DNA of 64,000 nt from the human T2T-CHM13v2.0 reference genome, Homo sapiens. Below the pieces are notes generated by a model, which was not told where the DNA came from, did no database searches, and saw only the letters and a list, made by a program, of their open reading frames with translations. Shown one piece after another: positions 1-41,748 of this stretch; within the stretch, counting starts at the first letter, position 1; every line of letters begins with the position of its first letter. The stretch is taken from NCBI RefSeq assembly GCF_009914755.1, contig NC_060935.1, one strand, 5' to 3'. The position numbers and the translations under genes are program-made.

Positions 1-5328
<5,328 letters not shown>

Positions 5329-14006: not shown

Positions 14007-14129
14007 GAAGTGCTTTCCAGGAAACCAGCATCCACTGGGATAAATACAGGAATAAGAGGAGAGTTGCCCATTAAGGTCCATCAAGGTCTTTTAGCTGCTG
14101 TACCTTACCAGAATTATATGGAAAATCAG
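14007..14129 (+). CDS. CCDC15: CCDC15 coding exon (probably exon 6), 123 nt, EVLSRKPASTGINTGIRGELPIKVHQGLLAAVPYQNYMENQ
   Basis: tttttttccAG acceptor, CAG/GTAGGG donor, 41 open codons, matches recalled CCDC15 protein. Confidence 0.93.
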
Positions 14130-23669: not shown

Positions 23670-24677
23670 AAAGTAAAATTCAAAAATCCATTATTTGTTC
23701 TGATGGAAGAGGAAGAACAAAAGCAGTTACATTTTGAGGGCCTTCAGGATATTCTGCCAGAAGCCCAGGATTATTTTCTAGAAGCCCAAGGTGATTTGCT
23801 GGAAACCCAGGGTGATTTGACAGGAATCCAGAGTGTTAAGCCAGATACCCAGGCTGTTGAAATGAAGGTTCAGGTTACTGAGCCAGAAGGCCAGGCCATT
23901 GAGCCAGAAGGCCAGCCTATTAAGACAGAAACTCAGGGTATTATGCTGAAAGCCCAGAGTATTGAGCTAGAAGAAGGGAGTATTGTGTTGAAAACCCAGG
24001 ATTTTCTACCCACAAATCAGGCTCTTCTAACGAAAAACCAGGATGTTTTACTCAAAGACCACTGTGTTCTCCCTAAAGACCAGAGTATTCTACTCAAATA
24101 TCAGGACCAGGACTTCCTACCCAGAGACCAGCATGTTCTCCACAAAGACCAAGATATTCTGCCAAAATATCAGGACCAGAATTTTCTACCTAAGGACCAG
24201 AATTTTTTATCTAGAGACCAGCATGTTCTCCCCAAAGACCAAGATATTCTGCCAAAATATCAGGACCAGAATTTTCTACCTAAGGACCAGAATTTTTTGT
24301 CTAGAGACCAGCATGTTCTCCCCAAAGACCAGAATATTCTACCTAAATATCAAGACCAGGATTTTCTACCTAAAGACCAGGACTTTTTATCTAGAGACCA
24401 GCATGTTCTCCCCAAAGACTGGAATATTCTACCCAAATGTCAGGACCAGGATTTTCTACCCAGAGACCAAGGTGTTCTTCCCAAAGACCAAAATATTCTA
24501 CCCATATGTCAGGACCAGGATTTTCTACCCAGAGACCAAGGTTATCTTCCTAAAGACCAAAATATTCTACCCATATGTCAGGACCGGGATTTTCTACCCA
24601 GAGACCTGCATGTTCTCTCCAACGACCAGAATATTCTACCCAAATGTCAGGACCAAGATTTTCTACCAAAATATCAG
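23670..24677 (+). CDS. CCDC15: CCDC15 large repeat exon (probably exon 8), 1008 nt / 336 aa, KVKFKNPLFVLMEEEEQ...QDQDFLPKYQ
   Basis: cactttTAG acceptor ending 23669, CAG/GTAAAA donor at 24678; contains the 327-aa ORF at 23703..24686; QDQDFLP repeats typical of CCDC15. Confidence 0.95.
23739..24677 (+). repeat. Coding tandem repeat: 21-nt (7-aa) monomers, with 69-nt and 90-nt higher-order units from 24054
   Basis: Heptads such as GLQDILP EAQDYFL EAQGDLL, then RDQHVLP/KDQNILP/KYQDQDFLP/KDQNFLS units; near-identical 90-nt copies at about 24123-24392. Confidence 0.92.
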
Positions 24678-27425: not shown

Positions 27426-27637
27426 TTAGACTAAAAGGAAGAAGAAAGACCAACAGGAATTAGATTACTTAGGGTTGTGGTTGGACTTTTGTGGAATGGA
27501 GTGTAGTTTTTGGTTTTTCCATAAGGTGCTCAATTATATTCTGATCTTGGTTAACTCCAGAATTCTCACTAAAACCTAAAGTCTTAACCTGTCATTCTTA
27601 ACGGAGCAATTGATATGTTGTGTTTGTTCTTTCATAG

Positions 27638-27757
27638 AAAGCAAGTCTGAAGCAGCCAACATCCATTTTGATAGGTAGGAGAGGGAGAGAGGCACTTCCT
27701 CTGGATGTCCATCAGGATCTTCTATGCAGGCATCATCAGGCCTCCATCAGAGGCAAG
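27638..27757 (+). other. Intact cryptic exon copy (120 nt, stop-free, AG/GT)
   Basis: ttctttcaTAG, then KASLKQPTSILIGRRGREALPLDVHQDLLCRHHQASIRGK, then AAG/GTAGAA; homologous to exon 29123 (QP..R.RE.LPLD.HQ). Confidence 0.8.
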
Positions 27758-28003
27758 GTAGAAAAGAAAAATGACAGAGACCAACAGGAACTGAATTGTT
27801 TAGAGTGTAGTTTGAAGCTTTCAAAGGTTGTTCTCAGCTAAACTTCAGAACTGACAAAAAGTATGAGTGTCTCTTTTATTCCATAATGTTTTATATTATC
27901 CTGAAAAAAACTACCCTTTGGCCTTCAATGAAGCCTAGAATATTATTGCCATCATATTAGTCTTGCTAGACAATTTATAGTTTTTTATTATTTTATCTTT
28001 TAG

Positions 28004-28126
28004 AAAGTACACTTTAAGGAGCCATACTCTGATATGACAGATGAGAAAGGGAGAGAAGACTTTTCTCTGGCAGACTATCAGTGTTTGCCTCCCAAATCCC
28101 AGGACCAGGATGACATCAAAAATCAG
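28004..28126 (+). CDS. CCDC15: CCDC15 coding exon (probably exon 9), 123 nt, KVHFKEPYSDMTDEKGREDFSLADYQCLPPKSQDQDDIKNQ
   Basis: tatctttTAG acceptor, CAG/GTAGAG donor, 41 open codons. Confidence 0.92.
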
Positions 28127-28226
28127 GTAGAGTAGAAGAAAAAGATATAAACAGGAAGGAAGTACCCAGGTTTTATAAATCCCAACAACTGGTAATTTAG
28201 AATGAGGGATTTTGGAGCTAACCTAA

Positions 28227-28557
<331 letters not shown>

Positions 28558-29122
28558 TAGTGGGAAGATGATCCTAAGTCCTATTAGAACAGAGGAACTG
28601 CTTCAGGAGCATAGAGTGTTAAACACTAAACAATTCAGTTCCTCCTGGTCTCTCTCCTTTTTGTTTTTTTCTCTTCTACTTTGTACTTCAGTGGTACAAA
28701 AGACCCTGGTCTAGGGAACTATATGAGTCAAAATCAGTTCAGTGATTTCTGAGGCTGATGTATCACGTTCATATCTTATTCCAGAATCAGTTGACTATTT
28801 TAATTTAACAAGATTATTCTTCAACTCTTACCAAAGCCAACAGTATTGCTGCAAGCATAATGCCCCTACATGTACAATGTAGGAACTAGAAGATACTTAG
28901 GATTTGATGAGTTTGTCAGACTATTTTGTCAATGATGGGATTAAGAATTAAGGTCTACATAGTTGAGCTAAAAGTGTAACATCTCCCTCATATCAAAACG
29001 TATCAGAATATTTTTACCTGGTTTCATTTCTCTGGAGTTTTCACTGAAGCTTATGATATTATGATTAGCATTACACAATTTTTTTTCTGTTGTTGTTTTT
29101 CCTTTAAAATATGTTTCTCAAG

Positions 29123-29230
29123 CAACCTGCATCTTTTATGAGAGAAGAAAGAGTGAGAGAGGAATTGCCTCTGGACTATCATCAATATGTTGTACCTAAA
29201 ATCCAGGACCAAGACTCCCCTAGAGAACAG
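29123..29230 (+). CDS. CCDC15: CCDC15 coding exon (probably exon 10), 108 nt, QPASFMREERVREELPLDYHQYVVPKIQDQDSPREQ
   Basis: AAG acceptor ending 29122 (first AG after the T-rich tract), CAG/GTAGAA donor at 29231; the recalled protein reads ...KNQ-QPASF... across this junction. Confidence 0.88.
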
Positions 29231-41644: not shown

Positions 41645-41748
41645 CGTCAAAAGCAGTACCTGAGACATAGACGACTTTTCATGGATATTGAGAGAGAACA
41701 AGTTAAAGAACAACAAAGGCAAAAAGAACAAAAGAAGAAAATTGAAAA
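41645..41748 (+). CDS. CCDC15: CCDC15 coding exon (probably exon 13), 104 nt, phase 0-2, start of the C-terminal coiled coil, RQKQYLRHRRLFMDIEREQVKEQQRQKEQKKKIE(K)
   Basis: ttaccttTAG acceptor, AA/GTAAGT donor at 41749, charged helical peptide. Confidence 0.92.

What the first reader, a model, noticed from the sequence alone, without database searches (positions are those of the whole stretch)
27638..27757. Intact, in-frame, apparently unused cassette exon
The segment is 120 nt and stop-free, with a pyrimidine tract plus TAG acceptor and an AAG/GTAGAA donor like those of the used neighbours. It encodes KASLKQPTSILIGRRGREALPLDVHQDLLCRHHQASIRGK, a clear paralog of the used cassettes, and is absent from the CCDC15 protein as I recall it. 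Inclusion would add 40 aa in frame. An internal ATAG/GTAGGA near 27675 could compete as a donor.
Basis: partly seen in the sequence, partly recalled or inferred. Interest (0 to 1): 0.72.

Follow-up and report, generated by a model that had tools for sequence, protein, structure and literature searches.

The report
Conserved, already annotated CCDC15 cassette exon
This 120-base stretch is a real, in-frame alternative exon of the centriole gene CCDC15 that is already annotated and is kept intact across placental mammals, so it is not a new exon; what may be new is that its splice donor sits inside an RNA duplex that a published study treated as plain intron.

Summary
It is a paralog of exons 14007, 28004 and 29123 (0 of 2000 shuffles each).

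It is not "unused". The hub's RefSeq table lists 27638-27757 as an exon of other CCDC15 transcripts.

The same segment lies directly before the exon-9 ortholog in 135 of 140 predicted CCDC15 proteins from 61 named mammals. Length changes are all in frame: 37, 39, 40 or 41 aa. Human identity to 24 non-primates is 72%, against 52-69% for five of the six neighbouring exons scored in most species.

Added here: Tang et al. 2020 (PMC7005744) treated this region as "intron 8". Their SRSF7 probe is window 27745-27781. Their ADAR1 editing site 2 is 27764, which is +7 of the cassette donor. Their ADAR-bound intron 8/intron 9 duplex covers the donor.

That donor is the weakest of the 10 in the window (5 of 9 consensus matches).

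Whether the duplex causes skipping in human cells is inferred, not shown. The exon is already known, so interest is modest.

The parts
27638..27757 (+). CCDC15 alternative cassette exon: 120 nt, 40 aa, phase 0-0
   Evidence: The hub RefSeq table lists it as an exon of other transcripts. Orthologs occur in 140 predicted proteins.
27617..27637 (+). Pyrimidine tract and AG acceptor of the cassette
   Evidence: 13 of 16 pyrimidines at -20..-5, then cat-ag.
27755..27763 (+). 5' splice site AAG|GTAGAA
   Evidence: 5 of 9 matches to CAG|GTAAGT, the lowest of the 10 donors in the window. The others score 6 or 7.
27672..27680 (+). Internal candidate donor TAG|GTAGGA (G at 27675)
   Evidence: 6 of 9 matches; use would give a 37-nt exon, a frameshift and a stop in exon 9.
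27750..27809 (+). 5' arm of the long-range RNA duplex; it covers the cassette donor
   Evidence: One search reports an inverted repeat 27762-27809 / 28620-28667 (48 nt, 85% complementary). The cofold pairs 27750-27806. The stem is present in the MFE and centroid structures. One search gives P(paired to 28620-28690) of 0.53-0.99 for the nine donor bases.
27764..27764 (+). ADAR1 editing site 2 of Tang et al. 2020, at +7 of the cassette donor
   Evidence: Found by comparing the WT and mut2 probe sequences in Supplementary Table 2 of PMC7005744. The probe maps to 27745-27781. The text places the site 240 nt upstream of exon 9.
28620..28688 (+). 3' arm of the duplex: the editing-site complementary sequence in intron 9
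   Evidence: Tang's primer In9.505F maps to 28631-28650. Their regions 4 and 5 form a 46-nt sequence in intron 9.
28004..28126 (+). Exon 9 of NM_025004.3: a paralogous 123-nt cassette that lies inside the loop closed by the duplex
   Evidence: Tang's Supp data 1 sequence starts at the last 4 nt of the cassette and runs through this exon.
14007..14129 (+). Paralogous 41-aa exon
29123..29230 (+). Paralogous 36-aa exon (exon 10), the closest paralog of the cassette
   Evidence: (z = 11.1).

Best explanation
Window 27638-27757 is a genuine alternative coding exon of CCDC15 that is conserved and already annotated. It belongs to a family of duplicated phase 0-0 exons of 36-41 aa: 14007, 27638, 28004 and 29123. 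They share a ...(R/K)-x-E-x-(L/F)-P-L-D-x-H-Q... core.

The family arose before the placental radiation. Inclusion adds one more copy of this module (40 aa) between the repeat-rich exon 8 and exon 9, without changing the frame. The selected human mRNA skips it.

My proposed reason for skipping is inferred, at odds of about 0.4. The exon has the weakest donor in this part of the gene. Once about 930 nt of downstream RNA has been made, that donor is drawn into a duplex of about 52 bp with intron 9. Tang et al. showed that this same duplex binds ADAR1 and ADAR2, is edited in cells, and promotes skipping of exon 9.

What the extra module does in the protein is unknown. By inference only, it lengthens the central repeat region of this centriole inner-scaffold protein by one more copy of a short linear motif.
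For: Anatomy and frame.

Annotation: the hub table lists 27638-27757 under exons of other transcripts.

Paralogy: one search gives 0 of 2000 shuffles for exons 14007, 28004 and 29123. One search shows the DNA alignment.

Orthology and constraint:
- One search found 31 proteins.
- One search found 197 hits, of which the best 120 were listed.
- One search found 42 proteins.
- In the union of 140 proteins, 135 have the cassette immediately before the exon-9 ortholog.
- They come from 61 named species of primates, hystricomorph rodents, perissodactyls, carnivores, artiodactyls and cetaceans, xenarthrans and a manatee.
- Cassette lengths are 41, 40, 39 or 37 aa, so every indel is in frame.
- Human identity to 24 non-primates is 72% for the cassette. 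It is 67, 55, 52, 67 and 69% for exons 28004, 29123, 23285, 11625 and 40403.

Weak donor: (5 of 9 matches, against 6-7 for the others).

Duplex:
- One search reports 48 nt at 85% complementarity.
- One search gives -61.3 kcal/mol, against -27.6 +/- 3.8 for 200 shuffles (best shuffle -37.7).
- One search shows the stem in both the MFE and the centroid structure.
- One search gives donor bases 0.53-0.99 paired to 28620-28690.

Experimental support for the duplex comes from PMC7005744. I read the passages and Supplementary Table 2 and Supp data 1. Editing occurs at 27764 in HEK293T cells. ADAR1 and ADAR2 bind a hairpin probe that begins GGUAGAAAAG, which is the cassette donor. Deleting the intron-9 partner abolishes the ADAR effect on exon 9.
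Against: I could see no human junction reads, cDNA or peptide with these tools.

Tang et al. amplified from exon 8 to exon 10. In the text I searched they do not mention a product containing this exon. Figures are not held.

Every protein search found only models that contain the cassette, so the denominator is unknown. Most are automatic predictions.

Among the unnamed 50%-identity representatives, 2 with an exon-9 ortholog have the cassette (P0143, P0147) and 2 lack it (P0144, P0146). No mouse, rat, bat, ruminant, dog or New World monkey model appeared in the lists. One search was cut at 120 of 197.

Against the masking idea: in sliding-window folding, where most windows lack the distant partner, the cassette donor is more open than its neighbours. 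P(9-mer unpaired) is 0.12-0.19 for the cassette. It is 0.0002-0.002 for exons 9, 10 and 11. U1 could therefore bind before the partner is transcribed. Constitutive donors are also predicted to be paired.
Confidence: 0.85

Rival explanations
1. Ordinary tissue-restricted alternative exon. The cassette is included at useful levels in some human tissues, such as testis or multiciliated cells. Inclusion would be governed by the usual exon-definition signals. The nearby ADAR-bound duplex would have no bearing on it.
For: Conservation is as high as for the constitutive neighbouring exons. The exon is included in many predicted isoforms, among them the sole models of Lemur catta, Otolemur, Vicugna and Erethizon. 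The donor is locally open before the distant partner exists.
Against: The donor is 0.53-0.99 paired to the intron-9 arm once both arms are present. Editing at +7 shows that the duplex forms in cells (PMC7005744). No human expression data were available.
Confidence: 0.35
2. Relic exon in the human lineage. It was a normal exon in the placental ancestor and is still used in other mammals. In humans it is now effectively silenced and kept in annotation only through rare noise transcripts.
For: It is absent from the selected human transcript (hub table). It has the weakest donor in the window. Its donor is buried in a duplex. The passages searched in Tang et al. mention no such product.
Against: The human sequence shows no decay. 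It is 100% identical to chimpanzee and 95-97% to gorilla, orangutan and macaque. It is as close to non-primates as the used exons are. The ORF and both splice sites are intact.
Confidence: 0.15
3. Decoy or regulatory exon. Its main role in human cells is not coding. Its 5' splice site and GA-rich flank would recruit U1 and SR proteins and so tune the splicing of the neighbouring exon 9. The element that Tang et al. called an intronic splicing silencer (ISS) would in fact be this splice site.
For: The SRSF7-binding probe 27745-27781 contains the last 13 nt of the cassette and its donor. Edits lie at and around +7. Tang et al. report that deleting 13 bp there slightly raised exon 9 inclusion.
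Against: A purely regulatory role does not explain conservation of the whole 40-aa reading frame with in-frame indels only. No experiment has separated donor function from silencer function.
Confidence: 0.2

Closest known systems
Annotated alternative cassette exon of CCDC15 (RefSeq non-selected transcripts; predicted isoforms in other mammals)
   Same: The coordinates are identical (hub table). The peptide is the same as in chimpanzee 'CCDC15 isoform 5' and isoform X3, at 100% identity.
   Different: Nothing differs. This is the same object. Only its use in human tissue is unmeasured here.
CCDC15 exon 9 (28004-28126), the ADAR-regulated cassette of Tang et al. 2020, Nat Commun 11:799 (PMC7005744)
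   Same: It is a paralogous exon of almost the same length (123 vs 120 nt). It has the same phase, a GTAGA donor and a GA-rich downstream flank. It is alternatively spliced. It is touched by the same intron 8/intron 9 duplex.
   Different: Exon 9 lies inside the loop of the duplex. The cassette lies at the foot of the duplex, with its donor in the stem. Exon 9 is in the selected transcript and the cassette is not. The cassette is not mentioned in the passages and supplements I searched.
Exons controlled by long-range intronic RNA pairing that loops out an exon or masks a splice site
   Same: Complementary arms 810 nt apart flank an alternative exon and overlap a 5' splice site. Formation in cells is supported by A-to-I editing (PMC7005744).
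   Different: An effect on this particular exon has not been tested. The arms are only 85% complementary over 48 nt by gap-free extension.
Tandem intragenic exon duplication giving symmetric phase 0-0 repeat modules
   Same: Four exons of 36-41 aa share a motif, a phase and a donor type. Several of them are skipped in some predicted isoforms.
   Different: The copies are old and diverged. No local Pfam model matched them. The function of the motif is unknown.

Membership tests
Alternative cassette exon (annotated) | AG acceptor with a pyrimidine tract, and a GT donor | tested here: met
Alternative cassette exon (annotated) | Inclusion and skipping both keep the reading frame | tested here: met
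   The exon is 120 nt and all flanking exons are phase 0.
Alternative cassette exon (annotated) | Present in at least one annotated transcript and absent from another | tested here: met
   The hub RefSeq table shows this; it is given text, not a tool call. add unnamed models without it.
Alternative cassette exon (annotated) | Human splice-junction or cDNA evidence | not testable with these tools
   No junction or EST resource is on hand. Paper searches found no report.
Exon under coding constraint | ORF and frame kept across distant species | tested here: met
   61 named species, with lengths of 37, 39, 40 or 41 aa only. Caveat: the search can only find models that include the exon.
Exon under coding constraint | Conservation at least equal to constitutive neighbours; dN/dS below 1 | tested here: inconclusive
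   Protein identity is 72%, against 52-69% for five of the six neighbours scored in most species. dN/dS could not be computed because no orthologous DNA was available.
Tandem exon-duplication family | Significant similarity to neighbouring exons in the same phase | tested here: met
   0 of 2000 shuffles for three exons. One search adds the DNA alignment.
Splice site masked by long-range RNA duplex | Stable complementary arms that include the splice site | tested here: met
Splice site masked by long-range RNA duplex | Duplex forms in cells | not testable with these tools
   The literature supports it. PMC7005744 reports ADAR editing at 27764, and RIP and REMSA with this duplex.
Splice site masked by long-range RNA duplex | Disrupting the duplex changes inclusion of this exon | not tested
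   This needs a minigene or antisense experiment. The sliding-window folds show the donor is open before the partner is made.
Decaying pseudoexon | Stops, frameshifts or lost splice sites in human or relatives | tested here: not met

The most novel reading that the evidence does not exclude
The GA-rich "intronic splicing silencer" of CCDC15 intron 8, published as an ADAR1-edited SRSF7 site, is in fact the 5' splice site region of a deeply conserved alternative exon.

The ADAR-bound intron 8/intron 9 duplex would then do two things. It would bury the cassette's donor, and it would loop out the paralogous exon 9. The two near-equal-length paralogous exons (120 and 123 nt) would form one structure-controlled switch.

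With the published validation primers, cassette-only and exon-9-only products would be 301 and 304 bp. They would be hard to tell apart on a gel.
Probability: 0.3. Interest if true: 0.5.

Novelty: already known. Interest (0 to 1): 0.3.

Why it matters
As an exon it does not add anything, because it is already in RefSeq.

Two points may be useful.

First, the canonical 951-aa human CCDC15 used in centriole work lacks a module that many predicted mammalian models carry, some of them the only model for their species. Functional studies of this inner-scaffold protein may therefore be missing an isoform.

Second, a well-cited case of ADAR-regulated splicing was interpreted as if this region were plain intron. 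If the edited element is really a splice donor, the SRSF7 "silencer" mechanism for CCDC15 exon 9 needs another look. So does the exon-8-to-exon-10 RT-PCR readout (301 vs 304 bp).

Tried and rejected
- Pfam gave nothing for the cassette, its paralogs or exon 8. It gave only sub-threshold noise for the gorilla protein. The PF28517 family that the database attaches to these proteins is not in the local Pfam copy.
- I looked for rodent models with a porcupine query. The first try was too short. The corrected query found only Erethizon and Chinchilla among rodents, so mouse and rat stay unknown.
- The representative search with gorilla isoform X2 returned 150 unnamed proteins. Most match only the C-terminal part. 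Few carry the central cassettes, so it gave no useful denominator and no taxonomy.
- I tested whether the intron-9 arm is an inverted copy of a whole cassette unit. The similarity stops at about 48-65 nt next to the donor and does not extend into the exon. I rejected that idea.
- Sliding-window accessibility did not single out the cassette donor as buried. The first run also had a span limit of 900, shorter than the 905-938 nt pairing distance. The full partition function over both arms is the relevant test. It speaks only to the state after the partner is transcribed.
- A search for the peptide EALPLDVHQDLLCR in papers gave 0 hits. Supplements are not covered by that search.
- I did not run structure prediction, complex prediction or the ESM Atlas. 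A 40-aa module in a repeat-rich region would not have changed the verdict.

Full report
**Observation.**
Window 27638-27757 is 120 nt and open in frame 0. It encodes KASLKQPTSILIGRRGREALPLDVHQDLLCRHHQASIRGK. It is preceded by ttgtgtttgttctttcatag and followed by gtagaa.

The nine other annotated CCDC15 exons in the window all read open in frame 0. Eight of them are multiples of three in length; 41645-41748 is 104 nt. Inclusion therefore inserts 40 aa without disturbing the frame, whether the cassette is joined to exon 9 or directly to exon 10.

Only 6.8% of random 120-nt windows of the same intron lack a stop in one frame.

Using it would give a 37-nt exon, a frameshift and a stop in exon 9.

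**Paralogy.**
The peptide aligns with exons 14007-14129, 28004-28126 and 29123-29230. The scores were reached by 0 of 2000 shuffles each, with z = 7.4, 6.7 and 11.1. Exon 23285 is marginal (70 of 2000). Exons 11625, 29712 and 40403 show nothing.

The four related exons also align as DNA over their whole length. They share the AG, the GGTAG donor and a GA-rich downstream flank. The shared protein core is roughly (R/K)-x-E-x-(L/F)-P-L-D-x-H-Q.

Exon 8 (23670-24677) is itself built of 21-nt and 90-nt tandem repeats. These encode DQxxLPK-type heptads.

**Is it unused?**
No. The RefSeq table added by the hub lists 27638-27757 among the exons of other CCDC15 transcripts. The selected NM_025004.3 skips it.

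A search with the 40 aa returned 31 proteins, all CCDC15 models or fragments. They come from chimpanzee (100% identity), gorilla, orangutans, macaques, baboon, colobines, rhinoceroses and lemurs.

A profile of seven orthologs returned 197 hits, of which the best 120 were listed. A porcupine query added bears, panda, badger, sea lion and chinchilla.

In the union of 140 proteins, 135 have the cassette directly before the exon-9 ortholog. The five exceptions are:
- Two orangutan isoforms in which the cassette is joined to the exon-10 ortholog.
- One partial Pygathrix protein.
- Armadillo and sloth, whose exon-9 match fell under my 50% cut. The sloth was adjacent.

The 61 named species cover primates, hystricomorph rodents, perissodactyls, carnivores, artiodactyls with cetaceans, xenarthrans and a manatee. 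The grouping into orders rests on my own knowledge.

Cassette lengths across 64 species-sequence entries are all in frame:

| Length | Entries |
|---|---|
| 41 aa | 42 |
| 40 aa | 15 |
| 39 aa | 2 |
| 37 aa | 5 |

Human identity to 24 non-primate species, by exon:

| Exon | Mean identity |
|---|---|
| cassette 27638 | 72% |
| 28004 | 67% |
| 29123 | 55% |
| 23285 | 52% |
| 11625 | 67% |
| 40403 | 69% |
| 41645 | 91% |

The human copy is thus as well kept as the used exons.

Caveats:
- These searches find only models that contain the exon.
- Most models are automatic predictions.
- The list was truncated.
- No mouse, rat, bat, ruminant, dog or New World monkey model was seen.
- Among unnamed 50%-identity representatives with an exon-9 ortholog, two have the cassette (P0143, P0147) and two lack it (P0144, P0146). 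P0142 has the cassette followed by an exon-10-like segment.

**Link to published work.**
The JCB paper on CCDC15 (PMC10630097) has 0 occurrences of "isoform" in a term search. It cites Tang et al. 2020 for aberrant CCDC15 splicing.

I read passages of Tang et al. (PMC7005744) and searched its supplements. Their "exon 9" is 28004-28126:
- Their Supp data 1 sequence starts CAAG|GUAGAAAAG..., which is the last 4 nt of the cassette, and runs into exon 9.
- Primer In8.3045F maps to 27722-27741, inside the cassette and at intron-8 position 3045 counted from 24678.
- Primer In9.505F maps to 28631-28650.

Their SRSF7 pull-down probe "In8 WT" is window 27745-27781, which spans the last 13 nt of the cassette plus its donor. 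The mut2 probe differs at 27764. That is +7 of the cassette donor and 240 nt upstream of exon 9, as their text states.

Their REMSA hairpin begins GGUAGAAAAG and ends CUCUUCUACUU. The stem they showed binding ADAR1 and ADAR2 therefore includes the cassette's GU.

The main text has 0 occurrences of "cryptic" and "pseudoexon". The reviewer file has 0 of "cryptic" and "annotated"; its one "alternative exon" is in an unrelated reference. None of the CCDC15 passages shown mentions an exon in intron 8. Figures are not held.

Three paper searches found only this paper and works citing it: CCDC15+ADAR1+exon 9 (7 papers), CCDC15+cassette exon (1 paper) and CCDC15+alternative splicing+isoform (11 papers, 10 listed). 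I opened one of them, PMC12710910, and it only restates Tang's result.

**The duplex.**
- The repeat finder reports arms 27762-27809 and 28620-28667, 48 nt long, 85% complementary and 810 nt apart.
- Cofolding 27745-27815 with 28610-28690 gives 52 intermolecular pairs, from 27750:28688 to 27806:28623. The energy is -61.3 kcal/mol, against -27.6 +/- 3.8 for 200 shuffles (best shuffle -37.7).
- The stem appears in both the MFE and the centroid structure of 27620-28710.
- In a full partition function over 27560-28760, the nine donor bases are paired to 28620-28690 with probability 0.53-0.99. The exon 9 donor is not paired to it at all (0.00).
- A weaker alternative pairing joins the same intron-9 arm to the paralogous flank of exon 9, at -41.3 kcal/mol.
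- The inverted similarity does not extend into the exon.

**Donor strength.**
The cassette donor matches the consensus CAG|GTAAGT at 5 of 9 positions. That is the lowest of the 10 donors in the window. Exons 28004, 29123 and 29712 have 6, and the rest have 7. The consensus motif is recalled, not taken from a tool.

**Results against the masking idea.**
In sliding-window folds most windows lack the distant partner. There the cassette donor is more open than those of exons 9, 10 and 11. P(9-mer unpaired) is 0.19 and 0.12 for the cassette, against 0.0002-0.002. U1 could therefore engage before the partner is transcribed, about 930 nt later. In-silico pairing of constitutive donors also shows that such numbers predict use poorly.

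**Conclusion.**
The object is a real alternative coding exon that is conserved and already annotated. I have high confidence in that.

My proposed reason for skipping is a weak donor captured by the ADAR-bound duplex. That is inferred, at odds of about 0.4.

A by-product concerns the published validation primers, Ex8.F at 24605-24624 and Ex10.R at 29209-29230. With them, cassette-only and exon-9-only products would be 301 and 304 bp. This is worth checking in that system.

Noticed in passing
window 24154-24243: The hub lists an alternative split of exon 8 (23670-24153, 24244-24677). The removed 90 nt equals exactly one unit of the 90-nt tandem repeat. The annotated borders read AT...AG, and the identical flanking repeat sequence holds no GT. 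It looks more like a repeat copy-number difference or a template-switch artefact than a spliced intron.
   Followed up: partly
window 23670-24677: Exon 8 is a nested tandem array: 21-nt units within 69-nt and 90-nt units, with four 90-nt copies at 91% identity. It encodes DQxxLPK-type heptads. Macaque and orangutan models align to it with large gaps (66-76% over 343-349 columns), which suggests copy-number change among primates.
   Followed up: partly
window 14007-14129 and 29123-29230: The paralogous cassettes are themselves missing from many predicted isoforms of other species. The exon 14007 ortholog is absent in many models, and the exon 29123 ortholog is absent in chimpanzee X3 and gorilla X4 and X6. 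The whole module family seems to be used combinatorially.
   Followed up: no
window 28131-28156 with 28655-28680: The intron-9 arm can also pair with the GA-rich flank just after the exon 9 donor (26 nt, 81% complementary; cofold -41.3 kcal/mol). This follows from the flanks of the cassette and exon 9 being paralogous.
   Followed up: partly
window 28245-28520: A stretch masked as repeat in the hub list lies inside the loop between the two duplex arms. By eye it looks like an antisense Alu. Part of the present arm spacing would then be primate-specific.
   Followed up: no
P0010 residues 779-806 (gorilla isoform X1); window between 29787 and 40402: Gorilla isoform X1 has 28 extra residues between the orthologs of exons 29712 and 40403. 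Similar gaps appear in some orangutan, macaque and rhinoceros models. This hints at another alternative exon in that long intron.
   Followed up: no
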